The translations under genes and the position numbers were made by a program. The notes beneath the pieces were generated by a model. It did no database searches. It saw only the letters and a list, made by a program, of their open reading frames with translations, and was not told the DNA's origin. Below are positions 9,449 through 33,350 of a DNA stretch of 64,000 nt, one piece after another (the first letter of the stretch is position 1; each line of letters opens with the position of its first letter). This DNA comes from an uncultured SAR116 cluster alpha proteobacterium (GTDB taxonomy: Bacteria; Pseudomonadota; Alphaproteobacteria; Puniceispirillales; Marisalimonadaceae). The stretch covers positions 8,832 to 72,831 of the forward strand of contig CABZSR010000008.1 in assembly GCA_902528415.1 (NCBI GenBank). Reading direction: 5' to 3'.

Positions 9449-9451
9449 TTT

Positions 9452-10192: not shown

Positions 10193-10277
10193 TGTTTATT
10201 TGAAAAAAATATGTCATTAATTATAACAAATGTATTATAATAATTACCAAGTAAAGTTTTAATTTCTATATAATTTC

Positions 10278-10853: not shown

Positions 10854-10855
10854 TT

Positions 10856-11839
10856 TTAAATTGTTTCTGTATTTAAGCAATTTTCAAAAACATTTTTGTC
10901 TACATTACCTCCAGAAGCTATAACTAAAACATTTTTGTTCTTAATTTTCACTTTTTCTGAAATAGCAGCAGCCAAACCTACAGCACCACCTGGTTCTAGA
11001 ACAATTTTGAAATGTTTATATGCTGTATTCATTGCTATTAAGGCTTCATCGTCAGAAACTGACACTCCAGAAGTTAAGTTTATTTTATTTATGTTAAATG
11101 TAATATTACCAGGCTTTTCAGCTAATAATGCATCACAGATTGATTTGTATTTCATTGAATTAGAAACTATTTTGTTTCTTTCTAGAGATTTTTTAGTATC
11201 ATCAAAATATTCTGGTTCAACAGAGTAAATTTTAGCATTATCAAATTTAGTTTTTATCGCTGTACTTATTCCTGCGATTAATCCTCCACCACCACAACAA
11301 CATAATACAATATCAGGTATAACGTTTATTTCTCCTAATTGTTCTAGACATTCAATACCAGCTGTACCTTGTCCAATTATAACATTAATATCATCAAAAG
11401 GTGGAATAATGGTTGCATTATTTTTTTGCGCTATAGCTTTACCAATCTCTTCTCTGTTTTCGCTATTTCTATTATATTTAACTATAGTTGCTCCCCAAAA
11501 AGCAGTTCCATTTAATTTAGTCCGTGGAGAATCTTCAGGCATTACAATTGTTGCTTTACGACCTGTTATTTTTGCTGCAGCAGCAACTGCTTGTGCATGA
11601 TTACCACTTGACCATGCAACCACCTTATTAACACTAGTAGGAAGTTGTAAAATAGTATTCATAGCACCTCGAAATTTAAATGCTCCAATAGTTTGAAGAT
11701 TTTCAGCTTTTAAAAAAAGGTTGGTTTGTAATTTTTGGTCAATATAAGGAGATTTCAACAATGGTGTTTTTACTATATAATTTTTTAATCTTTTAGAAGC
11801 TTCAGAAATTAATTTATAAGATACTTTGTCTTCAATCAT
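10856..11839 (-). CDS. PLP-dependent threonine/serine dehydratase (no regulatory domain)
   Basis: KAENLQTIGAFKFRGA (PLP Lys), SSGNHAQ, GGGGL, SGGNVD. Confidence 0.9.
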   Translation of the reverse strand: MIEDKVSYKLISEASKRLKNYIVKTPLLKSPYIDQKLQTNLFLKAENLQTIGAFKFRGAMNTILQLPTSVNKVVAWSSGNHAQAVAAAAKITGRKATIVMPEDSPRTKLNGTAFWGATIVKYNRNSENREEIGKAIAQKNNATIIPPFDDINVIIGQGTAGIECLEQLGEINVIPDIVLCCCGGGGLIAGISTAIKTKFDNAKIYSVEPEYFDDTKKSLERNKIVSNSMKYKSICDALLAEKPGNITFNINKINLTSGVSVSDDEALIAMNTAYKHFKIVLEPGGAVGLAAAISEKVKIKNKNVLVIASGGNVDKNVFENCLNTETI

Positions 11840-11873
11840 TGATATTTTCCCTAATAAATTTTAATACAATAAC

Positions 11874-11902
11874 TTGTTAAATTTAAATGACATGAGTATG
11901 AT
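11874..11902 (+). promoter_or_regulatory. Putative sigma70 promoter of dapA operon
   Basis: TTGTTA-N17-TATGAT ending 35 nt upstream of the dapA ATG. Confidence 0.45.
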
Positions 11903-11937
11903 ATACAAATTAATTTTTTAATGGCGAGGTTATTTTA

Positions 11938-12813
11938 ATGTTATTTCATAGTTCTTACACGGCACTTTTAACGCCATTTAAAGATAATCAACTAGATATT
12001 AACGCTTATAGAAATCTTGTTGATTTCCAAATAGAAAATGGAACTCATGGACTAGTTCCTGTTGGAACAACTGGAGAGTCACCAACTTTATCTCATGATG
12101 AACACAAAAAGCTTGTGGAAGTATGTGTTGAACAAGCCAATGGAAGAGTTCCTGTTATTGCTGGCGCGGGTTCTAACTCTACATCAGAAGCAGTCGATTT
12201 TGTTAAGCATGCATGTACAGCAGGTGCAGATGGTCTTTTAGTTGTAACACCATATTATAACAAGCCAACTCAATCTGGTTTGTTAGCCCATTATAATGAA
12301 CTTATAAAAAATTCAAGTAAACCAATAATAATTTATGATATACCGGGTCGCTCAGTAATAAAAATGTCAGATAATACCATGGCAGAATTAGCTAAAAACG
12401 ATTTAATAGTTGGTGTAAAAGACGCTACTGCTGATTTGGCTAGGCCAACAAGGTTGCAAAATCTAATTGGAGATAATTTTATTCAACTTTCTGGGGAAGA
12501 CGGTACCGCCCTTGCTTATTTAGCTGCAGGTGGTCATGGCTGTATATCCGTCACTGCAAACATAGCTCCAAACTTATTATCAAGAATGCATAACGCTTGG
12601 AAGCAAGGTGATATTACCAATGCGCAAGATATAAATAAGAAATTAATGCCTTTACATGATTCATTATTTTGTGAAACCAGTCCTGGTCCATTAAAATATG
12701 CAGCTTCATTATTAGGTATTTGTTCTTCAGAAGCAAGACTTCCTATGGTAGAAATTGAAGAAATAAGTAAGAAAAATGTTGATAACGCTCTTAAAACAGC
12801 AGGGTTACTCTAA
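11938..12813 (+). CDS. dapA: 4-hydroxy-tetrahydrodipicolinate synthase
   Basis: GTTGESPTL, PYYNKP, IYDIPGRS, GVKDAT. Confidence 0.97.
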   Translation: MLFHSSYTALLTPFKDNQLDINAYRNLVDFQIENGTHGLVPVGTTGESPTLSHDEHKKLVEVCVEQANGRVPVIAGAGSNSTSEAVDFVKHACTAGADGLLVVTPYYNKPTQSGLLAHYNELIKNSSKPIIIYDIPGRSVIKMSDNTMAELAKNDLIVGVKDATADLARPTRLQNLIGDNFIQLSGEDGTALAYLAAGGHGCISVTANIAPNLLSRMHNAWKQGDITNAQDINKKLMPLHDSLFCETSPGPLKYAASLLGICSSEARLPMVEIEEISKKNVDNALKTAGLL

Positions 12814-12829
12814 TTTGTTGAAATAAAAA

Positions 12830-13312
12830 ATGAAAAAAAATGTCACAAAAGGCATATCACACGGAAGAGTTGCTGAAAACAGACGAGCTAAATTTGATTA
12901 TTCTATTATAGATACAATAGAAGCTGGCATCATATTATTAGGTAGTGAAGTTAAAAGTCTTCGACTTGGTAGAGCAAGTATTGCAGAATCTTACGCAACT
13001 GACGAATATGGTCACATTGTCCTAATAAATTCTAATATTCCAGAATATAATTCTGCGGCATCTGGTCAGAACCATGAACCTAAAAGGGTTAGACGATTAT
13101 TAATACACAAAAAAGAAAGAAATAAAATTTTAGGACAGATAAAAAAAAATGGATGTACGATTGTACCGTTAAGCTTATATTTTAATAAAAGAGGTTTAGC
13201 GAAAATATCTCTAGGAATTGCAGAAGGAAAAAAGAAAGCTGATAAAAGAGAAGTAATAAAAAAACGTGACTGGGAAAGAGAAAAGCATCGATTATTAAAA
13301 AATAATAATTAA
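12830..13312 (+). CDS. smpB: SsrA-binding protein
   Basis: NRRAKFDY, EAGIILLGSEVKSLR, GKKKADKRE. Confidence 0.97.
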   Translation: MKKNVTKGISHGRVAENRRAKFDYSIIDTIEAGIILLGSEVKSLRLGRASIAESYATDEYGHIVLINSNIPEYNSAASGQNHEPKRVRRLLIHKKERNKILGQIKKNGCTIVPLSLYFNKRGLAKISLGIAEGKKKADKREVIKKRDWEREKHRLLKNNN

Positions 13313-13356
13313 ATTACTTGTAAATTATCAATTTATATCTTTTAAAACTATTTATT

Positions 13357-13857
13357 ATGTCTAATGAAATAATTATAGGTATTGGTGGAAATATAAATTC
13401 AGAGGATGGAACTCATCCTATCAAAATATGTAACAAGGCTATTTTTTCATTACAAGAGTATTCAATAAAGGTTAAAAAACAGTCAAAATGGTACAGTTCA
13501 GAAGCAATACCTAAGAGTAATCAACCAAATTTTTTTAATTGTGTAGTTATTGCGAATACTAAATTAAATGAATATGATGTTTTAAAATTTTTACATAAAA
13601 TTGAAGCAGAATTTGGTAGAAGAAGAAATAAAATTAATGCACCAAGATCTATCGATTTGGATTTAATAGATTATTCTAATAAAGTTTGTAAAAATAATAA
13701 ACTTATAATACCCCATCCGAGAGCACATTTAAGAAAATTTGTTATGGGTCCATTAGCAGAAATAAATCCTGATTGGATACATCCAATTCTAAAAGTTAAT
13801 GTTTTAGATATTTTGAAGAAATTAGATAAACAAAAACTAGAAGAAGCCTCTATCTAA
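13357..13857 (+). CDS. folK: 2-amino-4-hydroxy-6-hydroxymethyldihydropteridine diphosphokinase
   Basis: IGIGGN, PRSIDLDLI, PHPRAHLRKFV. Confidence 0.95.
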   Translation: MSNEIIIGIGGNINSEDGTHPIKICNKAIFSLQEYSIKVKKQSKWYSSEAIPKSNQPNFFNCVVIANTKLNEYDVLKFLHKIEAEFGRRRNKINAPRSIDLDLIDYSNKVCKNNKLIIPHPRAHLRKFVMGPLAEINPDWIHPILKVNVLDILKKLDKQKLEEASI

Positions 13858-20593: not shown

Positions 20594-21344
20594 ATGGAAT
20601 GATCAAGGTATAGTTTTATCTGCAAAAAAATATGGTGAAAAAGGACTCATAATAAATATCTTGACTGAAAACCATGGACGTCACCTAGGTTGGTTCAATA
20701 ATTATAAAAGCAAAAATATTTTAGCAGATGTTCAACCAGGTAATTTAGTAAATGTTTTTTGGAAATCTCGATTAATTGAACAAATGGGAAAGTTTAAAAT
20801 CGAACTTATTTCATCAGTTACTGGAAAAATATTTGACGAAAAACTGAAACTTCAAGCATTAAACTCAGTGTGTTCTTTATTAGAAAAATTTTTACCTGAA
20901 AGACAAAATTATTTTCAAATATTTAATGCAACTAATGCTTTTATACATCTCCTTACATTTCAGGATGAAAGTAAAAATGATTATTGGATGGAAGGTTATG
21001 TCAAATGGGAAATTGGTATTTTATCATCAATTGGATTTTCTCTTGATTTAAACCAATGTGCTGTAACAGGGAGTAACACTAATTTACTCTTTGTAAGTCC
21101 AAAAACTGGGAAGGCTGTCTCAAAAGAGGGTGCTGGAAGGCATGCTCCTAAGTTGCTTTTATTACCATTTTTTTTAGGAGGAGATAATGTTATAGGTTCA
21201 AATTTTTATAAAGAAATCTTAGCAGGACTAAACATTACGTCTTATTTCTTTAAAAATAAATTACTATTATCTATAAATACCAACAAACCAATAAACTTAC
21301 CTAAACCAAGAATACGGCTCGTTGAACTGATTGAAAAATTATAA
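20586..21344 (+). CDS. recO: DNA repair protein RecO
   Basis: EWNDQGIVL, CAVTG, VSPKTGKAVS; rnc-era-recO synteny. Confidence 0.93.
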   Translation: MPEWNDQGIVLSAKKYGEKGLIINILTENHGRHLGWFNNYKSKNILADVQPGNLVNVFWKSRLIEQMGKFKIELISSVTGKIFDEKLKLQALNSVCSLLEKFLPERQNYFQIFNATNAFIHLLTFQDESKNDYWMEGYVKWEIGILSSIGFSLDLNQCAVTGSNTNLLFVSPKTGKAVSKEGAGRHAPKLLLLPFFLGGDNVIGSNFYKEILAGLNITSYFFKNKLLLSINTNKPINLPKPRIRLVELIEKL

Positions 21345-21362
21345 ATTTAGAAGAGATATCTT

Positions 21363-23579
21363 ATGGAAAAATCTGATTTACAAGAAGAAAATATTAACTT
21401 TACTACCTTTTCAAAAGCAATTTCTGAACGTTATTTATCATATGCATTATCTACAATAACATCTAGATCTTTACCTGATGTTAGAGATGGTTTGAAACCA
21501 GTTCACAGGAGAGTTTTGTACGCAATGCTTCAATTAAAGCTAAATCATAATCTTAGCTTTAAAAAATCAGCAAGGGTGGTTGGTGATGTTATGGGTAAAT
21601 TTCATCCTCATGGTGATGCCGCAATTTATGAATCAATGGTTAGGATGGCTCAAGAGTTTGCTTTAAGGTATCCGTTAGTTGATGGTCAGGGTAATTTTGG
21701 CAATATTGATGGAGATAATGCCGCAGCTATGAGATATACAGAGGCTAGAATGACTAAAGCCGCAGAGTTACTTCTTCTTGATATCGATAAAGATACTGTT
21801 GATTTTAGAGTGACATATGATGATGAGGGTAAAGAGCCCGTTGTGTTACCTTCAGCGTTTCCTAATCTGTTAGCGAACGGATCTCAAGGTATTGCTGTTG
21901 GAATGGCTACTTCTATTCCACCCCATAATATTAGTGAGTTGGTAGATGCTCTTCTTCATTTGATCAAGTTTCCTAACGCATCTGGCACCACAATTTCTAA
22001 TTATGTAAAAGGACCTGATTTCCCAACAGGTGGTATATTGGTAGAGCCTAAAACATCCATCCAAGAAGCATATAGAATTGGAAAAGGTGGATTTAAATTA
22101 AGGGCAAGGTGGATTGTTGAAAAATTAAAAAGTGGTCAATGGCAAATAATAGTAACTGAAATACCTTATCAAGTTCAAAAAAGTAGATTGCTAGAGAAAA
22201 TTGCTGAATTGATGGAAAATAAAATACTACCAATGTTATCTGACATTAGAGATGAGAGTACAGAGAATATAAGGTTGGTTGTTGAGCCTAAAAGCAGAAA
22301 CTTATTACCTGAAATGATTATGGAGACACTCTTTAAAAAAACAGACTTAGAAACAAGAGTGTCACTAAACTTAAATGTTATTGACGATAAAAACATACCA
22401 GGAGTTAAATCTCTAAAAGAAACATTAAAATGCTGGTTGGATCATAGACAGATCATACTTAAAAGAAAAACTCAACACAGACTCTCTCAAATTGAGAATA
22501 GGATTAATATTTTAAATGGTTACATTACTGTTTACTTGAACTTAGACAAAGTAATTGAAATTATTAGAGAAGAGGACAAACCTAAAGAAGTATTAATATC
22601 TTTTTTCAAAATTAATGAAATTCAAGCAAATGCGATTTTAGATATGCGTCTTCGCTCCTTAAGAAAATTAGAAGAGATAGAGTTAAAAAAAGAACTTAGT
22701 AGTTTACAAAATGAATTAGAAACCCTTAAAGGTATACTTAATGATACAGATGAACAATGGAAAGTAATATATTCAGACATTAAAGATCTTAAAAAAGAAT
22801 TTAAAGATATATCAAATCGAAAAACTGATATTCAAGAATTACCAGATGTAGAAGATTTTAATGAAGATCAGTTTATTGTTAAGGAACCGCTAACAGTAAT
22901 TTTATCTGAACAAGGATGGGTAAGAACTCAAAAAAATCACTTAGAAGATGATATAGAATTGAAATATAGAGAGGGTGACAAGGAAAAATTTAAAATCCAT
23001 GCTCTAACTACTGATAAAATTATTTTTTTTGTAGATAATGGAAGGTTTTTTTCTGTTCCGGCTAATAAACTACCTACTGGAAGAGGTTTTGGTGAGCCTG
23101 TATCTCTTACAATAGATGTAAAGGGAGACAATAAAATTGTATCTTGTTTTCCGTTTTTTGAAGGTAGTGTAATTTTAGCTTTAGAATCTGGTCATGGTTT
23201 TAAAATTAAAACTACAAATTTAGTTGCGCAAACCAAGTCAGGAAAACAAATTTTAAATGTTAAAGACAATAATAAAGCAAAAATTTGTAAAAAAATAATT
23301 GGTGATACAGTTGCGATAGTAGGTAATAATAGAAAATTAATTATTTACTCAATTGAAGAAGTTCCTGAATTAAATAAAGGAAAAGGTGTGATACTTCAAA
23401 GATATAAAAATGGTACTTTATCAGACATTATGACATTTAAAAAAGAAGATGGTATTAATTGGAAAATGAATGGTGGACGTCAAAGAACTGAAAAGGATCT
23501 TTTGACTTGGGAAGGAAAAAGGGGTGGTGCAGGTAAAATGGTGCCAAACGGATTTCCAAGACCTCCATTATTTAAATAA
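21363..23579 (+). CDS. parC: DNA topoisomerase IV subunit A
   Basis: [23 protein letters not shown]; short CTD with no GyrA box seen. Confidence 0.93.
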
Positions 23580-23763
23580 ATTAATAAATCAAATGAATTT
23601 TACGATTTTTAAATGACCATTTTTTGAGCAAAATTTATTAAAAAATCTGAGTAATTTAAATCATAAAAATTTAAATAAAATTTTTATTTTTTTTGTGTTA
23701 ATAATTTTAAAACAAGGCTATAAATATACACATAAAATTAAATGATTTAAATGGGAGTTTTTT

Positions 23764-24864
23764 ATGAAACGTAGAGATTTTATTACTAAAACTGGTGTCG
23801 GAGTTGCTGCTGGTATTGTTGGAGCTGCTACACTGTCTGCACCAGCTATTGCTGACGGACACAAAGAAATAAACATTGTGTCAACTTGGCCAAGAGATTT
23901 TCCAGGATTAGGATTATCAGCGCAAAGATTAGCTGCAAGAATAACTGAATTATCTAATGGGAAACTAAAATGTAATTATTTTGCAGCAGGTGAAAAAGTT
24001 GGTGCCTTTGATGTTTTTGATGAAGTTGCATCTGGTAATTCGCAAGCTTACATCGCAGCTGACTATTACTGGAAAGGAAAACATCCTGGTTTTGCATATT
24101 TCACATCTGTTCCATTTGGAATGACTACTGTTGAGTGGAATGCTTGGATTAAATTTGGTGGTGGTCAGGAGCTCTGGGATGAGATGTCAGGTGAGTTTGG
24201 ACTCAAAGCCCTTCCATGTGGTGGTACAGGAACTCAAGCTGGTGGTTGGTTTAATAAAGAAATCAACTCAAGTGAAGATCTTAAAGGATTAAAGATGAGA
24301 ATTCCAGGCCTTGGTGGAACAGTTATGTCAAAATTAGGAGCCTCTCCAGTATCACTTCCAGGTGGACAGATTTATGAAAATCTCGTGTCTGGCTCAATTG
24401 ACGCTACTGAATGGGTTGGTCCATATAATGATTATTTCATGAAGTTTTATGAAGCTGCAAAATACTATTATACTGGTGGAATGCATGAACCAGGATCTTG
24501 TTTGGCTTTTGCTTTTAATGCAAGTTTTTGGGGCAAATTATCTAGTAACGAAAAAGCTTTAATAACAGCAGCTAGCATGGAGGAACATGCTGCTCAATAT
24601 GAAGAAACTTGTGCAAAAAATGGTGAGTATCTCGCTAAATTAATAAATGAGCATGGAACAAAGGTACGATCATTTAATGACGATGTTTGGGACTCTTTTG
24701 GTGAAGCAGCAGCTGAAGTTTTTGAAGAAACAAGAAATCATTCAGCACTTGCAAAAAAGATAGATGGCGCATATCAATCATTTTTAAAAGAATGTGGAAG
24801 TATGATGGCTAAGTTTGAAATCTCGTATGTAAATCAAAGAAACAGAGTTTTAGACTTTTCTTAA
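23764..24864 (+). CDS. dctP: TRAP transporter solute-binding protein, TakP/SmoM subfamily, Tat-exported
   Basis: MKRRDF Tat signal; DYYW, GTQAGGW, KMRIPG, ATEWVG, HEPG. Confidence 0.93.
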   Translation: MKRRDFITKTGVGVAAGIVGAATLSAPAIADGHKEINIVSTWPRDFPGLGLSAQRLAARITELSNGKLKCNYFAAGEKVGAFDVFDEVASGNSQAYIAADYYWKGKHPGFAYFTSVPFGMTTVEWNAWIKFGGGQELWDEMSGEFGLKALPCGGTGTQAGGWFNKEINSSEDLKGLKMRIPGLGGTVMSKLGASPVSLPGGQIYENLVSGSIDATEWVGPYNDYFMKFYEAAKYYYTGGMHEPGSCLAFAFNASFWGKLSSNEKALITAASMEEHAAQYEETCAKNGEYLAKLINEHGTKVRSFNDDVWDSFGEAAAEVFEETRNHSALAKKIDGAYQSFLKECGSMMAKFEISYVNQRNRVLDFS

Positions 24865-24871
24865 ACAACTT

Positions 24872-24909
24872 ATTAGGGTCAGCTTTCGCTGACCCTAATT
24901 TATTTTATA
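24872..24909 (+). terminator. Strong intercistronic hairpin (terminator or mRNA stabiliser) after dctP
   Basis: Perfect 12-bp stem ATTAGGGTCAGC/GCTGACCCTAAT (24872-24899), TTTC loop, followed by TTATTTTAT. Confidence 0.8.
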
Positions 24910-24922
24910 CAGGTATTCACAA

Positions 24923-25876
24923 ATTTATATTTATTACAGAATTTTTGGTTGGTCATTATTGTCTTTCATAATAGCCTTTTTGATAGACAATATATTAATA
25001 GTTGGATTTGAATTTCCTGGTGCTGTTTCAATTATAAATAATTTTTCTCTACCGTCTTTTTTTGAAATTTCAATTTATATGATTATTTTTTTATTCACCA
25101 TAATGGTGGTTTTAAAAAATAAAAATATATCGTTAAGAAAAGAAGCCGAACTTCTTCATCTTATTAATGTTTATTTAATAAGATCATGTTTTTGGGTTAT
25201 CTTCTTAGTTGGATTAGTTGATATTACTATAGCTTTTTTTCGTGTTGAGAAAATATTTGAAGTTTTTTTTACCAAACAGTTTTCTAGTAATTTTACCAGG
25301 CCTATTTTTGTAGGAACTTTTATACATTTACCTTTAATAGTTGTTGGTTTTATTTTAGGTAAATTTACTAAAACTCTTGGATTCCAATGGTTATCCTTGT
25401 TGATTGTTATAAGTGAACTTTTAATTGTTATTGCTAGATTTATATTTTCTTATGAACAAACATTTATGGGGGATTTAGTACGTTATTGGTATGCAGGTTT
25501 ATTTTTGTTTGCTTCTGCTTATACATTGTACGAAGAAGGTCATGTTAGAGTCGACATATTCTATCAAGGATTACAAAATAAAACTAAAGGATTGGTAAAT
25601 TGCGTAGGTTCAATAGCATTAGGTGTTTCTACATCTATGACAATTATTTTTATAGGTTTTAATGGGAAACAATCAATTATAAACAGTCCAATATTAAATT
25701 TTGAAATTACTCAGCAAGGTAGTGTTGGTATGTTTATTAAATACCACCTGGCAATGTTTTTAGGTGTATTTGGTATAACAATGTTAATTCAATTTATTAG
25801 TTACTTTTTTGAATCTTTAGCTGATTATTATGGTGAAAAAGGTAAAAGGGTGATTGAAAACCAGTCGAGTCACTAA
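24923..25876 (+). CDS. dctQ: TRAP small permease subunit with N-terminal extra membrane domain
   Basis: LFLFASAYTL..EGHVRVD DctQ motif; frame is open upstream of TTG 24959 (RIFGWSLL); start is uncertain (ATT 24923 with SD AGGT, or TTG 24959). Confidence 0.85.
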   Translation: MYIYYRIFGWSLLSFIIAFLIDNILIVGFEFPGAVSIINNFSLPSFFEISIYMIIFLFTIMVVLKNKNISLRKEAELLHLINVYLIRSCFWVIFLVGLVDITIAFFRVEKIFEVFFTKQFSSNFTRPIFVGTFIHLPLIVVGFILGKFTKTLGFQWLSLLIVISELLIVIARFIFSYEQTFMGDLVRYWYAGLFLFASAYTLYEEGHVRVDIFYQGLQNKTKGLVNCVGSIALGVSTSMTIIFIGFNGKQSIINSPILNFEITQQGSVGMFIKYHLAMFLGVFGITMLIQFISYFFESLADYYGEKGKRVIENQSSH

Positions 25877-25879
25877 TTC

Positions 25880-28534
25880 ATGGAACTTTTATTTTTAATT
25901 TTATTAATAGTTATAATGGCAATATCACTAGGGGTGGGTTTTCCTGTCGCTTTTGCTTTACCTGGTTCTGCTATCATTACAATTGGAACTGCGGCTTTTT
26001 TTGGTTATTTATTTGAAAATGACTTTGGAGCTTTTTTTTATTTAGGAGGTCCATCGGAATGGTTGTCAGCTGGTGTTACAAACCTTAGGGGCGTTTATTG
26101 GGAAGTTGAAAGAGACACACTTATAGCTATCCCTTTATTTATTTTCATGGGCTTAATGCTTCAGAGATCAAGAATTGCTGAAGATTTACTAGTAACAATG
26201 GCCCAACTTTTTGGTCCTGTTAGAGGCGGCTTAGGAATTTCAGTTGTCTTTGTTGGAGCTTTATTAGCTGCTACAACAGGTATTGTTGGTGCTACGGTTG
26301 TGGCTATGGGATTAATATCATTGCCAGCTATGTTACGTAATAAATACTCAGCTCCTCTTGCAACAGGAACCATTGCTGCTTCAGGTACACTTGGTCAGAT
26401 AATACCTCCATCAATTGTTTTAATAATTTTGGCTGATCAATTAGCCTCTGCTTCAGACCAGGCTAGTACTATGAGAAAAGCTTTGTATAAAGAAGCAACT
26501 GGTCAAATTTCCATGCCTTCAATTTTTGATGTAACTTCGACCAGCGCTGGAGAAATGTTTTTGGGAGCCTTTTTGCCTGGAATTTTATTAGTAGGTATAT
26601 ATATGCTTTTTATCTTAGTTTTAGCATTTATATTTCCTAAAACTGCTCCTGCCGTTCCTTATGATGGAAAGATGGATAAAAAGTTTTGGCTTAACGTAAT
26701 GTTAATCCTAATTCCACCATTAACTCTAATAATTTTGGTGCTAGGTTCTATAATTACTGGTATTGCAACTGTCAATCAAGCTGGAGCGATTGGAGCTGCT
26801 GGTGCTATTATTATGGCAGGATACAGACAAACTGAAGGTTTCAAAAGCTCTCTTTATCCAGCAATCTTAGTTATTATTGCTGTCCTTATCTTAGCTTATG
26901 CAGTTTCTAATTATAATATGAATGTAAAATTAATTAATACTTTTGATGATAAGATTGGTATTTTTTTAGGATCTTTTGGATCTATAATACTTTGTATTGC
27001 TTTAGCGTGGAGTTGTTGGAGACTTTTCAAGTTTGGTAACACTATGCAAGGTGTAATGCTTGAAACAGCTAAAACAACATCTTTGGTTTTTATAATTTTA
27101 TTAGGTGCAGCTATGTTAACTGCAGCATTTAGAGCTTTTGGAGGTGAAGAATTAGTTAAAGAGTATTTAAATTCTTTACCAGGAGGTTTTTGGACTAAAT
27201 TTGTAATTGTCATGCTAGTTATTTTTATACTTGGATTTTTTCTTGACTTTATTGAAATAGCTGTTGTTGTAGTGCCAATTGTTGCTCCAATTTTATTATC
27301 CGATCCATCTGCAAATATAACAGCAGTTTGGTTGGGTGTTATGATAGGTTTGAACATTCAAACTTCTTTTTTAACACCTCCTTTTGGCTTTGCATTATTC
27401 TATTTAAGAGGCGTTGCGTCTAAAGCAGTTAAAACTATTGAGATGTACAAAGGTGTTATTCCTTTTATCACTCTTCAATTAATTGCTTTGGCTGTGGTTG
27501 GTTCATATCCTTATTTAGTAAATTATCTACCTAATAGATTAAGCTTCACATCTGAAACGTCTCCTCCTCCAAAAAATCCTAAATTGCAATTATGTATTGA
27601 AAATTATATGAAGGAAAATGTATTAAGTAACAAAAATAATACTAAAAACTCAATTGATTTTTTGGCTAAGGCTGACTTAACCACGCTTCCAAAGGAATAT
27701 AAAAAAATAATTGTTAATTCAATTACTAATTTTAATAATGGATTTGATAATTTAAGCAATGCTTTTGAAATACAAAGCCAAATTAATGTTGAAGCGATTC
27801 AATATTTACCTAAGTTGAAAGTAGTTAGGGACAAAGAGAAAAATATTAGAGAATTTAAGAAATTAATTAAAGACAATAAAACAAGCATTTCTAGGTTAGA
27901 CTCGGAAGAAACTGAAAAAATATTAACATTAAAAAATGAAAATATACTATTAAATGAAAAAATTAATAATGAAAAATTAAATTTTCCTAATAACTGGGTT
28001 AATGAGTACAAAATTTTTCAAAATCTTATTAAATCTGAAAATATGAATAGAAATAAATATAGAAGATCAGTCGATAGTTCTTATGAAGAAATAGAGATTA
28101 TTTACAATATATTGAATAAAAGAGACACGCTTTATAAGTTTGAAAAAGATTTTATTAAATTTAATAATGTATTAGAAAAAGATAATCCTAAAATTCTATC
28201 AAAAGAAATAAAAGAGTTATCTAAAAAAATATCTCGTCTACCAGACAATTCTAAAATAACTTCCAAATTATCAAAAGTTTCAAGAAATTTAAAAAAGAAA
28301 AAAGTTAACTATAAAAGAGTAAGAAAAGATTTTGAAAAGTCATTTTCTATTTATTTGAGTAAAATTAATTCTTTAAAGACTATTGATGAAAATGTTGAGA
28401 ATTATTTAGATAACTTTCTTAATGATACAAGAAATACTCTTGGTCTTAGGTTGCAGCAAAGTTTGCCTAAAGATGTTGCTCTATATTTGGCTAGTTGTAA
28501 ATCATCTCACCGTAATTTATCATTATATTTTTAA
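25880..28534 (+). CDS. dctM: TRAP large permease subunit with long soluble C-terminal extension
   Basis: GFPVAFAL, AIPLFIFMG, GTLGQIIPPS, SFLTPPFG; about 320 extra hydrophilic residues after the last TM. Confidence 0.92.
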   Translation: MELLFLILLIVIMAISLGVGFPVAFALPGSAIITIGTAAFFGYLFENDFGAFFYLGGPSEWLSAGVTNLRGVYWEVERDTLIAIPLFIFMGLMLQRSRIAEDLLVTMAQLFGPVRGGLGISVVFVGALLAATTGIVGATVVAMGLISLPAMLRNKYSAPLATGTIAASGTLGQIIPPSIVLIILADQLASASDQASTMRKALYKEATGQISMPSIFDVTSTSAGEMFLGAFLPGILLVGIYMLFILVLAFIFPKTAPAVPYDGKMDKKFWLNVMLILIPPLTLIILVLGSIITGIATVNQAGAIGAAGAIIMAGYRQTEGFKSSLYPAILVIIAVLILAYAVSNYNMNVKLINTFDDKIGIFLGSFGSIILCIALAWSCWRLFKFGNTMQGVMLETAKTTSLVFIILLGAAMLTAAFRAFGGEELVKEYLNSLPGGFWTKFVIVMLVIFILGFFLDFIEIAVVVVPIVAPILLSDPSANITAVWLGVMIGLNIQTSFLTPPFGFALFYLRGVASKAVKTIEMYKGVIPFITLQLIALAVVGSYPYLVNYLPNRLSFTSETSPPPKNPKLQLCIENYMKENVLSNKNNTKNSIDFLAKADLTTLPKEYKKIIVNSITNFNNGFDNLSNAFEIQSQINVEAIQYLPKLKVVRDKEKNIREFKKLIKDNKTSISRLDSEETEKILTLKNENILLNEKINNEKLNFPNNWVNEYKIFQNLIKSENMNRNKYRRSVDSSYEEIEIIYNILNKRDTLYKFEKDFIKFNNVLEKDNPKILSKEIKELSKKISRLPDNSKITSKLSKVSRNLKKKKVNYKRVRKDFEKSFSIYLSKINSLKTIDENVENYLDNFLNDTRNTLGLRLQQSLPKDVALYLASCKSSHRNLSLYF

Positions 28535-28551
28535 AACTGTTAGCGCGATAA

Positions 28552-30144
28552 ATGCAATCATCTAAAATGTCTTTTAAAAATATGATGGTGGCCCCTCATC
28601 ATTTAGCAGCGAAAACTGGATCAGATATTTTAAAAGAGGGTGGGAATGCAATAGAAGCTATGATTGCATCGGCAGCAATAATATCTGTTGTTTATCCACA
28701 CATGAACTCAATGGGTGGAGATAATTTCTGGTTAATATCAGATAAAAACAAAAAGGTCACTGCCATTGATGCGTGTGGCCCCGCTGCAAAAAATGTGTCT
28801 ATAGATTATTATAAAAAACTTGGCTTTAATAAAATTCCTTCACGTGGTGCTTTATCAGCATTAACAGTTCCTGGCGCAGTATCTGGTTGGAAATTAGCAT
28901 ATGATTATAGTGTTAAAAATTTAGGAGGTAAACTCCCTTTAAGTCGCCTTTTATTTGATGCAGAACAGACTTCTAAAGATGGAATTGCAGTTACAAATAC
29001 TCTAAAAAATAATCTAACTTCTAAATTATCACAACTTATCGATATTCCAGGATTTAAAGAGATATATTTAAAAGATGGAAAAATACCTGAATTTGGAGAT
29101 AAATTAACTTTTCCTGCAATGTCAAAGACTTTTTCTACGCTAATAAAGAATGGATTAGAAGATTTCTATTTAGGTGATATTTCTGAGAGTATTATATCTG
29201 ATTTATTTGACCTTGGATCACCTTTGAATAAAAATGATTTTAAAAATTTTAATGCTTCTTTTGTAAATCCTTTAGAACTGAAGATAAAAAATGCTAGACT
29301 TTTTAACTTACCACCTCCTACTCAAGGATTAGCATCTATATTAATTCTTGGAGTTCTAAATGAGTTCCCTAATTCTCATAAAGATGATGTTGATTTTATT
29401 CATACTATTGTTGAGGCAACGAAAGTTGTTTTCAAAATAAGAGATAGGTATGTGTGTGATCCTAAATATATGAGTACGGATATTAATCAATTTCTTAGTA
29501 AAGATTTTATTAAAAATTTAGCTAATAAAGTTAATTTTGATAAAGCTTTGCCTTGGCCAGATGCTAGTGTTGGTGGAGACACAGTTTGGCTTGGAGCCTC
29601 AGATTCATATGGGAATAATGTAAGTTTTATTCAAAGTATTTATTGGGAATTTGGTTCAGGATTAATTTTACCTAAAACTGGAATAACAATGCAAAACAGA
29701 GGCATAAGCTTTTCTTTAGATCCAAATAACTTTAATAAGCTAATCCCTGGTAGAAAACCGTTTCATACAATTCAACCTGCTTTAGCACAATTTGATGATG
29801 GTAGGGTTATGTCTTATGGTACAATGGGTGGTGAAGGTCAACCCCAGACACAAGCCACAATTTTTTCACGATATGCAATTCAAAATTTAAATTTGCAAGA
29901 AGCTATCAATCAACCTAGATGGCTTTTAGGGAGAACTTGGGGAGAAGAAACTACATCATTAAAAATTGAAGGAAGGTTTTCAAAAGAAACTTTTGAGAAG
30001 CTAGAACTATTAGGTCATATTATTGAAAAAGTTGGAGATTTTGAAGAGATTATGGGACATGCAGGTGCAATTGTTACTGATGCTAATGGATTAATTCATG
30101 GAGCTTATGATTTACGAAGTGATGGTGCTGCCATAGGTGGTTAG
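28552..30144 (+). CDS. Gamma-glutamyltransferase-fold Ntn hydrolase, HpxW/YwrD-like
   Basis: GGNAIEA, GGDNFW, autocleavage site GGD|TVW (Thr344), SFIQSIYWEFGSG, PFHTIQP, GTMGGEGQPQ, PRWLLGRTWG. Confidence 0.9.
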   Translation: MQSSKMSFKNMMVAPHHLAAKTGSDILKEGGNAIEAMIASAAIISVVYPHMNSMGGDNFWLISDKNKKVTAIDACGPAAKNVSIDYYKKLGFNKIPSRGALSALTVPGAVSGWKLAYDYSVKNLGGKLPLSRLLFDAEQTSKDGIAVTNTLKNNLTSKLSQLIDIPGFKEIYLKDGKIPEFGDKLTFPAMSKTFSTLIKNGLEDFYLGDISESIISDLFDLGSPLNKNDFKNFNASFVNPLELKIKNARLFNLPPPTQGLASILILGVLNEFPNSHKDDVDFIHTIVEATKVVFKIRDRYVCDPKYMSTDINQFLSKDFIKNLANKVNFDKALPWPDASVGGDTVWLGASDSYGNNVSFIQSIYWEFGSGLILPKTGITMQNRGISFSLDPNNFNKLIPGRKPFHTIQPALAQFDDGRVMSYGTMGGEGQPQTQATIFSRYAIQNLNLQEAINQPRWLLGRTWGEETTSLKIEGRFSKETFEKLELLGHIIEKVGDFEEIMGHAGAIVTDANGLIHGAYDLRSDGAAIGG

Positions 30145-30145
30145 T

Positions 30146-30865
30146 TTATAAAGATTGCCAGTTACTTCCATCTAAGATTTGTCCAGGTTTAAAACGACTC
30201 TTATAAGACATACTTGATATTTCACTGATGTAATAACCTAAATATAAATGTTTGTATTTATTTTTTTTTCCAAATATTAAACATTCAGAAATCATAAAAT
30301 TCCCCATGCCTAATTTACTAAGTTTAGGATCAAAAAAACTATATACAGCTGATAAATTAACATCGTCAATATCTAAAAGTATTACGCCCATTAGATTTTT
30401 AGATTTGTCTCTAAACTCCATTAATTTTGTTCTTATGGGAGACGTTTCTATCATTGATATGAATTCATTTTCATCCATGTCAGACATAGATCCGCCAGAA
30501 TGTCTCTCAAATTGATATTTCTTAAAAAGATTATAATGTTCCGTTGTCGCAATATTTTTAATAATTTTGTAATCTACGTCTCTAATGTTTTTAATGACTC
30601 TTTTTAAACTTTTTGTTAATTCAAATTTTTTAATATCGACTCTGTATGATTTACATTCACTACAATTATCGCAAACCGGTCTATACATCCAGTTTTCGAC
30701 TCTTCTAAAACCATTAGATGCTAATTCGTTATATACTTTATTATTGTAAGTTATATCTGTCGCTATTCTCTTTTCAACTCGTCCTTTTAAGTAAGGACAA
30801 GGTGTTGCTTTAGTAAGCATATAAATTGGTTGTTCTAATACACTTTTAGGTTTTACATCTATCAT
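30146..30865 (-). CDS. bpt: Aspartate/glutamate leucyltransferase (Bpt/Ate-like N-degron enzyme)
   Basis: PCPYL, GFRR, YRPVCxxC, LSAVYSFFDP, YLGYYI, MSYK. Confidence 0.9.
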   Translation of the reverse strand: MIDVKPKSVLEQPIYMLTKATPCPYLKGRVEKRIATDITYNNKVYNELASNGFRRVENWMYRPVCDNCSECKSYRVDIKKFELTKSLKRVIKNIRDVDYKIIKNIATTEHYNLFKKYQFERHSGGSMSDMDENEFISMIETSPIRTKLMEFRDKSKNLMGVILLDIDDVNLSAVYSFFDPKLSKLGMGNFMISECLIFGKKNKYKHLYLGYYISEISSMSYKSRFKPGQILDGSNWQSL

Positions 30866-30888
30866 ATTAATTATTACGACTTACGAAA

Positions 30889-31923
30889 TTAATTTTTATC
30901 ATACTTATTAAGTAATTTTTTTGCTATATGTGGAGCAAAATAAGTAATAATACCATTACATCCAGCTCTTTTAAATGCTATTAAGCTCTCAAAAATAATT
31001 TTATCCTCGTCAAACCATCCCTTATCGATAGCGTTTTTTATCATAGAGTATTCCCCTGACACTTGATAGGCATATGTAGGCATTTTAAATTCTTGTTTTA
31101 CTCTATAAATTATATCTAAATAGGGCATTCCAGGCTTTACAATAACCATGTCTGCTCCTTCACTTATATCAAGAGCTATTTCTTTTAAGGCTTCATCAGA
31201 ATTGGCAGGATCCATTTGGTAACTTTTCTTAGATTTTTTTGATAGAGATAAATTTGATCCAACGGCATCTCTAAATGGTCCATAGAAAGCTGAGGCATAC
31301 TTTGCTGCATATGACATTATTTGTATATTTGTAAAACCATTTTTATCAAGAACATCTCTTATAAAACCAACCCTACCATCCATCATATCACTCGGTGCAA
31401 TTATATCACAACCTGCTTCAGCTTGAACAAGAGCTTGTTTACATAATATTGACAAAGTTTCGTCATTATCAATTTGATTATTAATTATAATGCCATCATG
31501 ACCGTGATCCGTATATGGATCAAGAGCCACGTCACAAATGACTCCTAATTTAGGGTTAACTTGTTTTGAAATTTCAATGGCTTTACATATTAAATTATTT
31601 TTGTTTAGTGCTTCCTTACCATCAGAAGTTTTTAATTCATTTTGTACTTTAGGAAAGAAAGCAATAGCCGGAATACATAAAGAAGATATATATTTTATTT
31701 CTTCATGTAGTAAATCCAACGAAAATCTATATATTCCAGGCATGGACAAAACTTCCTCTTTTACATTTGAGCCGTAAGTAATAAAAATAGGATAAATCAA
31801 GTCATCTAAAGATATATTATTTTCAGAAATTAGCCGTCTTGAAAAATTCGACATTCGATTTCGTCTCATTCTTATTCTTGGAAAGCTATTTGACGAAAAT
31901 ACTTGATTTGTAGATTGTTTCAT
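30889..31923 (-). CDS. hemB: Porphobilinogen synthase (Asp-type, Zn-independent site)
   Basis: DVALDPYTDHGHDG, PSDMMDGR, VKPG, AYQVSGEY. Confidence 0.97.
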   Translation of the reverse strand: MKQSTNQVFSSNSFPRIRMRRNRMSNFSRRLISENNISLDDLIYPIFITYGSNVKEEVLSMPGIYRFSLDLLHEEIKYISSLCIPAIAFFPKVQNELKTSDGKEALNKNNLICKAIEISKQVNPKLGVICDVALDPYTDHGHDGIIINNQIDNDETLSILCKQALVQAEAGCDIIAPSDMMDGRVGFIRDVLDKNGFTNIQIMSYAAKYASAFYGPFRDAVGSNLSLSKKSKKSYQMDPANSDEALKEIALDISEGADMVIVKPGMPYLDIIYRVKQEFKMPTYAYQVSGEYSMIKNAIDKGWFDEDKIIFESLIAFKRAGCNGIITYFAPHIAKKLLNKYDKN

Positions 31924-32033
31924 ATTTATGTCCTGCTAATAATTCCATAGGTTGTAATTTATACAGCAATAAACTATCAATCAACTTAGTTTTATTAATT
32001 TTTGAATATAAGCTCTAATAGGAATCAAATACA

Positions 32034-33350
32034 ATGTTATTATCAAAATTCTTTATGCCTGTTTTGAAAGAAGTTCCAAAAGAAGCAGAAATTATCTCTC
32101 ATGTTTTAATGTTAAGAACTGGTATGATACAACAATCTTCATCAGGAATATATTCTTGGCTACCATTGGGAAAGATAGTTTTAGAAAAAATTATAGATAT
32201 CTGTAGAAAACAGATGATAGAGGCAGGAGCTAACGAAATACTCATGCCTACGTTACAATCGGCTGATATTTGGAAACAGTCAGGTAGATATGAAGATTAT
32301 GGTAAGGAGATGCTTAGAATAAAAGATCGTAATGATAGAGATCTGTTATACGGGCCTACCAACGAAGAGTTGGTAACTGAAATTTTTAGAACTCATGTAA
32401 AGAGTTATAAGCAACTTCCTCTTAATCTTTTTCACATACAATGGAAATTTAGAGATGAACTAAGACCTAGATTTGGAGTTATGAGAGGTAGGGAGTTTTT
32501 AATGAAGGATGCCTATTCATTTGACATTGATTATGCCTCTTCAATTAAATCTTATAATATAATGTTCATTTCATACATGAAGTTGTTTAAAAAAATGGGA
32601 CTTAAAGCAATTCCTATGAAAGCTGATACAGGTCCAATAGGGGGGGACCTTAGCCACGAATTTATTATAATTGCTGAGACAGGAGAAAGTGAAGTTTATG
32701 TGGAAGATAACCTTCTAAATTTCCAAAGTTCATTAGAAAATATTAATTACAATGATGATCTCCAAAAAGAAGTTGATAAATATACTTCTTTTTATGCAGC
32801 TACAGAAGAAAAACACGATCCTAATGATCACAAAAATAATCTTAATTTAGTTAAAACTAGAGGAATCGAGGTGGGCCATATTTTTTATTTTGGGCAAAAA
32901 TATTCAATTCCTATGAATGCTTCTGTGAGTGATAGCGAAGGAAAAAGTATTTCTCCATATATGGGTTCATATGGTGTTGGTCTCTCTCGATTAGTGGGCG
33001 CTGTAATTGAAGCCAATCATGATAATAATGGAATAGTATGGCCTAAAGAAGTTACTCCTTGGAATTATAATATAATAAATTTGAAAAGTGGCGATCATAC
33101 TTGTGATGAAATATGCTCTAATTTATATAAATTAATGAAAGAAAACTCTCTAAGCGTTCTTTATGATGATACTTTTGAAAGGGCTGGAGCAAAACTCGCT
33201 AAGGCAGATCTAATAGGTTTGCCATATCAAATCATAATCGGACCTAAAGGTGTTAAAGATAAATTATTTGATGTTAAGAATAGAAAAAGTGGAGATGTTT
33301 CTAAATTATCTTATAATGAATTATTAAATTTTTTAAATATAAAATTATAG
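32034..33350 (+). CDS. proS: Proline--tRNA ligase (short form lacking editing insertion)
   Basis: [32 protein letters not shown]; 438 aa. Confidence 0.97.

What the first reader, a model, noticed from the sequence alone, without database searches (positions are those of the whole stretch)
23764..30144. TakP-type TRAP transporter linked to an HpxW-like amidohydrolase: candidate oxamate / 2-oxo-amide scavenging system
Seen: dctP-dctQ-dctM-Ntn hydrolase lie on one strand with 3-bp and 17-bp gaps between the last three genes, set between core genes parC and bpt. Knowledge: the binding protein keeps the residue set TakP uses for a cation-2-oxoacid complex (YY, Q in GTQAGG, R in KMRIPG, EW, E in HEPG). 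The hydrolase resembles my recollection of Klebsiella HpxW oxamate amidohydrolase (GD|TVW nucleophile, SFIQSIY-EFGSG, MGG[DE]GQPQ, PRWLLGRTWG) more than canonical periplasmic GGT, and has no signal peptide. Inference: oxamate is an isostere of pyruvate and a purine-degradation product, so this unit could import oxamate or a related 2-oxo-amide and release NH4+, with no other purine catabolic genes nearby.
Basis: partly seen in the sequence, partly recalled or inferred. Interest (0 to 1): 0.7.

Follow-up and report, generated by a model that had tools for sequence, protein, structure and literature searches.

The report
TRAP importer joined to HpxW-type amidase
A marine alphaproteobacterium has an oxamate-amidase-family enzyme gene attached to the end of an old, widely conserved keto-acid uptake operon, which suggests but does not prove that it scavenges nitrogen from oxamate or a similar small amide.

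Summary
dctP, dctQ, dctM and a signal-less GGT-family hydrolase lie co-directionally between parC and bpt, with 3-bp and 17-bp gaps. Every quoted motif is present.

The hydrolase belongs to the HpxW (oxamate amidohydrolase) family:
- Its best solved relative is 5HFT.
- It sits inside a well-supported clade with Enterobacter HpxW and allFGHK-linked members.
- It keeps 13 of 15 family-signature positions.

TakP-type TRAP operons lie beside HpxW-family genes in 19 of 80 unrelated proteobacterial loci. They occur in four gene orders, and many have sigma-54 promoter boxes.

This window's TRAP is a different kind:
- It belongs to an ancient orthogroup with a 58-80% identical binding protein, a long DctQ and an 884-aa DctM.
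- That orthogroup usually occurs without any HpxW gene.
- In other alphaproteobacterial families it sits at the same parC-bpt site without the hydrolase.

The hydrolase was therefore added in one lineage, and the transporter's ligand is probably not oxamate alone.

The genome (73% complete) shows no allFGHK and no clear oxalyl-CoA decarboxylase, so any oxamate would have to come from outside.

Verdict: oxamate import and deamidation is the best single reading (about 0.45), and it is unproven. The scan noted a similar TRAP-TauE-HpxW unit on other DNA.

The parts
23580..23763 (+). AT-rich intergenic region upstream of dctP; the promoter was not identified
   Evidence: Sequence read. No sigma-54 -24/-12 box at 9 or more of 12 matches in 23001-30200. 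Sigma-70-like matches are no more frequent than in shuffles. No Rfam family.
23764..24864 (+). dctP: Tat-exported TakP-type TRAP solute-binding protein (366 aa)
   Evidence: PF03480 at E 6e-51. Best PDB relatives are 4PET, 5CM6, 7UG8 and TakP 2HZK. TakP residues Y99, Y100, Q156, R177, E214, W215 and E240 align to Y101, Y102, Q158, R179, E216, W217 and E242. An RRDFITK twin-arginine leader is present.
24872..24899 (+). Intercistronic stem-loop (12 bp, 6 G-C pairs, 4-nt loop) followed by a T run, between dctP and dctQ
   Evidence: In relatives the stem is kept through changes on both arms. Inferred role: attenuator or mRNA-stabilising hairpin that gives excess binding-protein message, as in other binding-protein operons.
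24959..25876 (+). dctQ: small TRAP membrane subunit with an N-terminal extension of about 150 aa (about 4 extra hydrophobic segments)
   Evidence: PF04290 matches residues 155-285 only. Hydropathy. The full length is conserved in the genus and at 53% identity in Minwuia and Roseovarius.
25880..27541 (+). dctM core: large TRAP permease domain (residues 1 to about 554)
   Evidence: PF06808 and TIGR00786. Hydrophobic segments run to residue 543.
27542..28534 (+). dctM C-terminal tail of about 330 aa: soluble, all-helical, with no known family
   Evidence: No Pfam hit. Across orders the start keeps an invariant PPPxN..L..C and the end an invariant C...H...SL.F. AlphaFold2 mean pLDDT 85.5, all helices. 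No Foldseek PDB match at E <= 0.001. It is a separate ORF in G071.
28552..30144 (+). HpxW-family Ntn amidohydrolase (530 aa, cytoplasmic); predicted autoprocessing and nucleophile Thr344 (codon 29581-29583)
   Evidence: PF01019 at E 3e-122. It scores below the NCBIfam GGT equivalog cut-offs. 5HFT chains A and B give 265 + 250 bits, against 258 for 2NLZ and 169 for E. coli GGT; 5HFT chain B starts at the aligned TVW. It lies inside a 99%-supported HpxW clade and keeps 13 of 15 signature positions.

Best explanation
The four genes work as one uptake-and-deamidation unit.

- The Tat-exported TakP-type binding protein captures a small 2-oxo-monocarboxylate through a cation bridge. The DctQM permease imports it.
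- The cytoplasmic HpxW-family Ntn hydrolase, translated from the same message 17 bp after dctM, splits imported oxamate into oxalate and ammonium. This yields nitrogen.
- The transporter is probably a broader 2-oxo-acid importer (pyruvate-like ligands) that also carries the pyruvate isostere oxamate. The hydrolase was added to its 3' end in this lineage.

Shown: gene order, family memberships, conservation, and recurrence of TakP-type TRAP with HpxW elsewhere.
Inferred: co-transcription, oxamate as ligand and substrate, and the fate of the oxalate (probably excreted, since no oxalyl-CoA decarboxylase was found).
For: 1. The hydrolase is in the HpxW family.
- The best PDB hit is 5HFT, with about twice the score of any other GGT-fold structure.
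- It lies in a 99%-supported clade with Enterobacter and Erwinia proteins that are near-identical to 5HFT.
- It keeps 13 of 15 family-specific positions. The genome's other GGT paralogue keeps 0.

2. Family-wide context fits oxamate.
- 11 of 80 loci have allFGHK, which makes oxamate from oxalurate, next to the gene.
- 9 have an amidase-signature neighbour, as beside the Enterobacter and Erwinia HpxW genes.
- One has a CoA-transferase III gene plus a TPP enzyme gene, consistent with frc/oxc.

3. TakP-type TRAP operons lie within about 3.5 kb of HpxW-family genes in 19 of 80 loci from alpha-, beta- and gammaproteobacteria.
- They occur in four gene orders, with at least 9 changes of state on the hydrolase tree.
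- At least three binding-protein subtypes are involved, counting this one.
- 9 of about 14 loci have a sigma-54 -24/-12 box 70-110 nt upstream of dctP, against 0.12 expected.

4. No allFGHK is found in the genome, so there is no internal oxamate source.

5. The unit is kept intact while the hydrolase diverges to 56% identity.

6. In 300 sampled alphaproteobacterial genomes, HpxW is enriched among carriers of this binding-protein orthogroup: 7 of 25 against 22 of 275, odds ratio 4.5. Relatives are not independent.
Against: 1. The binding-protein orthogroup keeps the same pocket signature throughout. It occurs in 25 of 300 sampled genomes, 18 of which have no HpxW-family gene and none of which has it adjacent.
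2. Minwuia and Roseovarius carry the same long-Q, long-M TRAP without the hydrolase.
3. G146 and G165 have this TRAP at the same parC-bpt site, in the opposite orientation and without the hydrolase.
4. The pocket differs from the subtype usually found beside HpxW: W42, A99, D100, Y102, W217 here against Y42, N99, A/S100, F102, F217 there.
5. That 'main' subtype also occurs without HpxW in 3 of 6 sampled genomes.
6. The hydrolase clade sits on a long stem (0.4) in an unresolved polytomy and differs at two signature positions: A107P, and W380M in the GIxWQNRG motif.
7. No TauE gene and no sigma-54 box are present here.
8. No paper in the searchable library links oxamate with TRAP transport or with seawater.
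Confidence: 0.45

Rival explanations
1. The transporter and the hydrolase are functionally independent. The TRAP is a housekeeping importer of pyruvate-like 2-oxo acids. The HpxW-type enzyme landed at the 3' end of its operon in this lineage and acts on oxamate, or another amide, that arrives by another route.
For: - The TRAP orthogroup is ancient, 58-80% identical across orders, and mostly HpxW-free.
- The same parC-TRAP-bpt site lacks the hydrolase in other families.
- The best solved relatives of the binding protein include TakP (2HZK), for which pyruvate and a cation are bound; 4PET and 5CM6 are pyruvate complexes by my recollection.
- The whole region is syntenic, so conservation within the lineage alone proves little.
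Against: - TakP-type TRAP operons lie beside HpxW genes repeatedly and independently in other lineages. This is hard to explain without a functional link.
- The 17-bp gap and shared strand have been kept through deep divergence.
- The genome shows no internal oxamate source.
Confidence: 0.3
2. The enzyme hydrolyses a different small amide tied to 2-oxo-acid import. One candidate is 2-oxoglutaramate or 2-oxosuccinamate, formed when imported 2-oxo acids are transaminated with glutamine or asparagine (an omega-amidase-like role). Another is an imported longer 2-oxo-amide.
For: - The clade differs from other HpxW members at W380M in the GIxWQNRG motif and sits on a long branch.
- The binding-protein pocket has smaller residues (G/A/S154, T157, A159) and an acidic D/E100 compared with TakP and 4PET. 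This could suit a larger ligand or one that donates hydrogen bonds.
- Attachment to several TakP subtypes would also fit an enzyme that clears a by-product of keto-acid use.
Against: - 13 of 15 family-specific positions and all family-invariant residues are kept.
- TRAP-linked members elsewhere keep 15 of 15 and interleave with allFGHK-linked members.
- Known omega-amidases belong to the nitrilase superfamily, not the GGT fold (my knowledge).
Confidence: 0.15
3. The enzyme is a cytoplasmic gamma-glutamyl or glutathione hydrolase, or a cephalosporin-acylase-like enzyme, unrelated to oxamate.
For: - The Pfam family is G_glu_transpept.
- 2NLZ ('cephalosporin acylase') scores 258 bits.
- A few HpxW-family loci lie next to Dpp-type ABC transporters.
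Against: - It scores below both NCBIfam GGT equivalog cut-offs: 332 against 358, and 172 against 990.
- It has no signal peptide.
- It lies outside the clades that hold the genome's own GGT paralogue and the other GGT representatives.
- The own GGT paralogue keeps none of the 15 signature positions that this protein keeps 13 of.
Confidence: 0.05

Closest known systems
Klebsiella HpxW, oxamate amidohydrolase (PDB 5HFT; Hicks and Ealick 2016, cited in PMC5270733)
   Same: - GGT/Ntn fold.
- Cytoplasmic.
- Autoprocessing at GD|T.
- Same clade.
- Motifs SFIQSIY.EFGSG, MGG[DE]GQPQTQ and PRWLLGRTWG are shared.
- About 50% identity in the large subunit and more in the small subunit.
   Different: - Here it is not embedded in a purine (hpx) cluster and has no oxalurate-cleaving genes in the genome.
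- It is attached to a transporter.
- Two family-signature positions differ, including W380M.
- Activity is untested.
- That 5HFT is HpxW rests on my knowledge plus its near-identity to the Enterobacter hpx-cluster protein.
TakP (Rhodobacter sphaeroides), alpha-keto-acid TRAP binding protein with a cation-bridged ligand (PMC1839085)
   Same: - All seven ligand, cation and closure residues are conserved.
- It has a Tat leader.
- It is in the same Pfam family.
   Different: - Pocket-lining positions differ: W42 for F40, A99 for V97, D100 for G98, G154 for N152, T157 for V155, A159 for M157, M240-H241 for W-W.
- The partner DctQ and DctM are much longer.
The TakP-type TRAP (often with TauE) plus HpxW units seen here in Halomonas, Limnobacter, Polynucleobacter, Hyphomicrobiaceae and others; apparently undescribed in the searchable literature
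   Same: - A TakP-type TRAP operon lies next to an HpxW-family gene.
- The most common order is dctP-dctQ-dctM-(tauE)-hydrolase, as in the window.
   Different: - Those units use another binding-protein subtype (about 37% identity; N99, F102, F217) and normal-length DctQ and DctM.
- They often carry TauE and a sigma-54 promoter.
- None of these features is present here.
E. coli allFGHK oxalurate pathway (oxamic transcarbamylase plus carbamate kinase), as described in PMC12625717
   Same: It is the known biological source of oxamate. Homologues lie directly upstream of HpxW-family genes in 11 of the 80 surveyed loci.
   Different: No homologue was found in this genome by tblastn. The window unit would use external oxamate, not internally produced oxamate.

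Membership tests
HpxW family (oxamate amidohydrolase, GGT/Ntn fold) | GGT-fold domain with a Thr nucleophile at the autoprocessing site | tested here: met
   PF01019 covers residues 25-525. T344 aligns with residue 1 of 5HFT chain B. D343 and T344 are invariant in 24 family members.
HpxW family (oxamate amidohydrolase, GGT/Ntn fold) | Groups with authenticated HpxW rather than with GGT, YwrD-like or other paralogues | tested here: met
   FastTree of 151 proteins. The window protein lies inside a 99%-supported clade with Enterobacter and Erwinia HpxW orthologues. The genome's own paralogue and 34 other representatives fall outside it. The position within the clade is unresolved. Named YwrD and E. 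coli Ggt sequences could not be fetched.
HpxW family (oxamate amidohydrolase, GGT/Ntn fold) | Family-specific residue signature | tested here: met
   13 of 15 positions that are at least 90% conserved in the family and at most 20% in the outgroup are kept. The misses are A107P and W380M. The genome's own paralogue keeps 0 of 15.
HpxW family (oxamate amidohydrolase, GGT/Ntn fold) | Hydrolyses oxamate to oxalate and ammonium | not testable with these tools
   This needs an enzyme assay. The primary paper (PMC4908869) is not held, so the published substrate-contact residues could not be checked.
HpxW family (oxamate amidohydrolase, GGT/Ntn fold) | Genomic link to purine, allantoin or oxalurate catabolism | tested here: not met
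   No AllF, AllG, AllH or AllK homologue was found in the 73%-complete genome. Only generic M20 and aminotransferase hits appeared.
TakP-type TRAP binding protein | DctP fold with the TakP carboxylate, oxo and cation ligand set | tested here: met
   PF03480. Y101, Y102, Q158, R179, E216, W217 and E242 align with TakP Y99, Y100, Q156, R177, E214, W215 and E240.
TakP-type TRAP binding protein | Binds 2-oxo monocarboxylates (or oxamate) | not testable with these tools
   No ligand-binding tool is available. No characterised member of this orthogroup was found in the PDB (best 236 bits) or in the papers searched.
Canonical periplasmic gamma-glutamyltransferase | Signal peptide and equivalog-level similarity to Ggt | tested here: not met
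   No signal peptide. TIGR00066 scores 331.9 against a cut-off of 357.85; PRK09615 scores 172.5 against 990.
Recurrent TRAP-(TauE)-HpxW unit of other proteobacteria | Main-type binding protein (N99, F102, F217), TauE gene, sigma-54 promoter | tested here: not met
   The pocket signature differs. No TauE hit in the genome. No -24/-12 box in 23001-30200.

The most novel reading that the evidence does not exclude
Oxamate, or a close 2-oxo-amide, is an unrecognised dissolved organic nitrogen currency. Many proteobacteria, including this streamlined marine alphaproteobacterium, take it up with TakP-type TRAP transporters. They deamidate it with HpxW-type enzymes without having the rest of purine catabolism, and they release oxalate. 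In this lineage an ancient keto-acid TRAP with an unusual helical extension of about 330 aa on DctM was co-opted for the job.
Probability: 0.35. Interest if true: 0.7.

Novelty: new variant of a known kind. Interest (0 to 1): 0.5.

Why it matters
If the reading is right, the last nitrogen of purine breakdown is traded between microbes as oxamate. Cells that lack the upstream pathway would salvage it with a four-gene unit that standard annotation labels 'C4-dicarboxylate transporter' and 'gamma-glutamyltransferase'. That would add a cross-feeding route to marine and freshwater nitrogen budgets and a possible source of oxalate.

It also gives a direct experiment: one binding protein, one enzyme and a handful of ligands.

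Independently of the oxamate question, the window's TRAP belongs to a widespread, strongly conserved and uncharacterised orthogroup. Its DctQ and DctM carry large extra domains that no solved TRAP structure explains.

Tried and rejected
- Sigma-54 and NtrC control of the window operon: no -24/-12 box was found. NtrC-like palindromes upstream of the sigma-54 boxes in other loci are no commoner than background, about 1 per 250 nt at up to 4 mismatches, so nitrogen control is not shown.
- Riboswitch or other RNA: nothing in Rfam at E <= 0.1 for 21000-32500.
- Co-loss within the genus: five genus genomes without the hydrolase also lack the binding protein. The two that I checked also lack parC and bpt matches. 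The whole region is therefore missing or unassembled, and the pattern is uninformative.
- A first sigma-54 scan had an indexing error and was redone.
- The Hicks and Ealick HpxW paper is not held, so published active-site contacts could not be compared.
- Literature: no paper links oxamate with TRAP or TakP, or with seawater. 7UG8 could not be traced. The SAR11 TRAP binding protein of PMC11485210 is discussed with isethionate and the paper never mentions pyruvate, oxamate or keto acids, so it did not help.
- Oxalate catabolism in the genome: nine family-III CoA-transferase paralogues are present, but only 23-24% identical generic TPP-enzyme hits to Oxc.
- Fold search of the DctM tail gave only generic long-helix matches, with TM-scores of 0.26 or less normalised to the model and 0.30 or less to the target.
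- Named reference sequences for E. coli Ggt and B. subtilis YwrD could not be obtained. The control genomes are not returned as loci. The phylogeny therefore uses unnamed representatives as outgroup.
Full report
**1. Observation**

The region holds four co-directional genes between parC (21363-23579) and a convergent bpt (30146-30865):
- dctP, 23764-24864
- dctQ, 24959-25876
- dctM, 25880-28534
- a GGT-family hydrolase, 28552-30144

Pfam and NCBIfam confirm each family.

Three features were not mentioned:
- DctM is 884 aa, about twice the usual size.
- DctQ is 305 aa, and the DctQ domain covers only residues 155-285.
- The 94-bp dctP-dctQ spacer carries a strong hairpin followed by a T run. 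Its stem is kept in relatives through changes on both arms.

G+C is about 29% throughout. The genome is a 1.72-Mb alphaproteobacterial assembly, 73% complete.

**2. The hydrolase**

Against the PDB, the two chains of 5HFT give 265 and 250 bits. The next fold relatives, 2NLZ and 2I3O, give 258 and 228 bits over the full length. E. coli GGT gives 169 bits. By my knowledge 5HFT is Klebsiella HpxW, the oxamate amidohydrolase. Consistent with that, an Enterobacter protein that sits beside amidase, M20 and class-V aminotransferase genes matches 5HFT almost perfectly.

The window protein aligns from its first residue, has no signal peptide, and has Thr344 at the position where 5HFT chain B begins. 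It scores below both NCBIfam GGT equivalog cut-offs.

In a 151-sequence tree, the window clade lies inside a 99%-supported group. This group also holds the Enterobacter and Erwinia HpxW orthologues and all 80 surveyed genome loci. The genome's second GGT paralogue and 34 other representatives fall outside it. The window clade consists of the window protein, three genus orthologues and three metagenomic relatives at 56-61% identity.

The window clade sits on a long stem in an unresolved polytomy. Of 15 positions that separate the family from the outgroup, the window protein keeps 13 and the paralogue keeps 0. The two misses are A107P and W380M, the latter in the GIxWQNRG motif.

I conclude that it is a member of the HpxW family by sequence. 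Its activity is untested.

**3. What HpxW-family genes sit next to**

A scan of one genome per species returned 80 loci at 46-55% identity.

| Neighbour | Loci |
|---|---|
| allFGHK homologues | 11 |
| TakP-type TRAP operon within about 3.5 kb | 19 |
| Amidase-signature gene | 9 |
| Dpp-type ABC transporter | at least 4 |
| CoA-transferase III gene plus TPP-enzyme gene beside a GntR regulator (consistent with frc/oxc) | 1 |

allFGHK is the oxalurate-to-oxamate module. The amidase-signature neighbour is also what lies beside the Enterobacter and Erwinia HpxW genes.

The TRAP-linked loci come from alpha-, beta- and gammaproteobacteria. They show four arrangements: upstream co-directional, downstream co-directional, divergent and convergent. 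TRAP adjacency changes state at least 9 times on the hydrolase tree. Four of these loci insert a TauE-family gene between dctM and the hydrolase.

In 9 of about 14 loci where the region upstream of dctP is available, a sigma-54 -24/-12 box lies 70-110 nt upstream on the right strand. About 0.12 would be expected by chance. Sigma-54 dependence does not by itself mean nitrogen control, and the NtrC-site test was inconclusive.

Taken together, HpxW-family enzymes are fed either by an internal oxalurate-cleaving module or, apparently, by a TakP-type transporter.

**4. The transporter in this window is a different kind**

The binding protein keeps all TakP ligand, cation and closure residues. It is only about 37% identical to the binding proteins found beside HpxW elsewhere. 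Most of those share one pocket signature (Y42, P49, N99, F102, F217), whereas the window has W42, L49, A99, D100, Y102 and W217.

The window protein belongs to a very conserved orthogroup. Proteins 72-81% identical occur in Rhodobacterales, Minwuia and many marine metagenomes. All keep the same signature: A-[DE]-YYW, CG[GAS]TGTQ[AM], [DE]ATEW and GMHEPG.

| Genome or contig | What is there |
|---|---|
| Minwuia thermotolerans, uncultured Roseovarius | Same operon: DctQ about 330 aa, DctM 883-887 aa; no hydrolase |
| G146, G165 (other alphaproteobacterial families) | Same TRAP between parC and bpt, opposite orientation; no hydrolase |
| Two sister families of the same order | The orthogroup at 58-59% identity; no HpxW gene |

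In an even sample of 300 alphaproteobacterial genomes:
- the orthogroup occurs in 25;
- the HpxW family occurs in 29;
- both occur in 7, and in none are they adjacent.

That is an enrichment (odds ratio 4.5), though relatives are not independent. Even so, 18 of the 25 carriers have no HpxW. The 'main' HpxW-linked subtype behaves the same way: 6 of 300 genomes carry it, 3 of those have HpxW, and 2 have it adjacent.

The transporter therefore predates the hydrolase at this site. Its ligand cannot be one that requires HpxW. The hydrolase was added to the 3' end of the operon, together with an inversion of the TRAP segment. It has since been kept there while diverging to 56% identity.

**5. Rest of the genome**

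No AllF, AllG, AllH, AllK or TauE homologue was found. There is no convincing oxalyl-CoA decarboxylase, although nine family-III CoA transferases are present. Any oxamate would have to be external, and the oxalate would probably be excreted. The genome is incomplete, so these absences are provisional.

**6. Mechanism and odds**

The best single reading, at about 0.45, has four parts:
- The TRAP imports small 2-oxo monocarboxylates, including oxamate.
- The hairpin after dctP tunes the ratio of binding protein to permease.
- The hydrolase is translated from the same message.
- It releases ammonium from oxamate.

The strongest support is the repeated, independent pairing of TakP-type TRAPs with HpxW enzymes. 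At least three binding-protein subtypes are involved, counting this one. A further point is the lack of an internal oxamate source.

The strongest counter-evidence is that this transporter usually works without HpxW.

Rivals:
- An independent keto-acid importer with an unrelated neighbour (0.3).
- Another amide substrate, such as 2-oxoglutaramate, linked to keto-acid transamination (0.15). W380M, the long branch and the roomier D100-containing pocket hint at this.
- A gamma-glutamyl hydrolase (0.05).

**7. Novelty**

Both protein families are known. A stand-alone 'TRAP plus HpxW' salvage unit does not appear in the papers I could search. An earlier first-stage note of this scan proposed the same idea for a TRAP-TauE-HpxW operon on other DNA. 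The window carries a variant built on a different, uncharacterised TRAP orthogroup.

**8. Side result: the DctM tail**

The tail of about 330 aa has no Pfam family. It keeps an invariant PPPxN..L..C at its start and C...H...SL.F at its end across orders. In G071 it is a separate ORF that begins exactly at the PPP motif. It folds confidently as long helices (pLDDT 85.5). It has no significant PDB match.

By my recollection of solved SiaQM structures, both ends of the M subunit face the periplasm. If that is right, the tail is periplasmic and the two invariant cysteines could form a disulfide. This is inference only.

Noticed in passing
window 27542-28534 (DctM residues 555-884): The helical C-terminal domain of about 330 aa on DctM is conserved in length across alphaproteobacterial orders. 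Its start keeps an invariant PPPxN..L..C and its end an invariant C...H...SL.F. It has no Pfam family and no significant PDB fold match, and the AlphaFold2 model is confident (pLDDT 85.5). It is probably periplasmic, which is inference only.
   Followed up: partly
L119 8470-9450 (G071:C18): In this genome the DctM tail is a separate 326-aa ORF that starts at the MPPPKNPKL motif. It overlaps the end of a 572-aa DctM core by 44 nt in another frame. The tail can therefore exist as its own polypeptide, or this is a frameshift.
   Followed up: no
window 24959-25420 (DctQ residues 1-150): DctQ has an N-terminal extension of about 150 aa with about four extra hydrophobic segments and no Pfam match. 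The extension is conserved in Minwuia and Roseovarius orthologues (53% identity over residues 1-297).
   Followed up: partly
L013 (G006:C3) 9014-13834: In one genus member the TRAP genes are much more diverged than their flanks: DctP 62%, DctQ 45% and DctM 56%, against hydrolase 75% and parC 83%. Its binding-protein pocket is more TakP-like (N154, V157, M159). This looks like allele replacement or a shift in specificity.
   Followed up: no
L120 (G146:C5) and L121 (G165:C7): The parC / long-type TRAP / bpt / hemB neighbourhood is conserved across distant alphaproteobacterial families. The TRAP segment is inverted relative to the window, and no hydrolase is present.
   Followed up: partly
G000:C9:53617-55164 and C9:56990-58333: The genome has a second GGT-family paralogue, 32% identical and outside the HpxW clade. 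It lies about 1.8 kb from an amidase-signature gene.
   Followed up: no
L047, L054, L056, L064 (dctM-tauE-hydrolase) and L126 9615-10421: A TauE/SafE-family membrane protein gene travels with HpxW-family genes in several unrelated lineages, including a hydrolase-TauE pair with no TRAP. It could export oxalate or import oxamate. Its role is unknown.
   Followed up: partly
L038 5495-9437: In a Kiloniellaceae genome, a family-III CoA-transferase gene, a TPP-enzyme gene (together consistent with frc/oxc) and a GntR regulator gene lie directly upstream of the HpxW-family gene. This fits a route from oxamate to oxalate to formyl-CoA.
   Followed up: no
G000, several contigs (C1, C2, C3, C4, C7, C17, C35): A genome of about 2 Mb carries nine family-III CoA-transferase paralogues, which is an unusually large set.
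   Followed up: no
window 24930-24958 and relatives (alignment A2): A sequence block just upstream of the dctQ start (consensus about TTATTACnGATTATTTGGTTGG) is conserved among genus members. It may be an internal promoter or a translation signal downstream of the hairpin.
   Followed up: no
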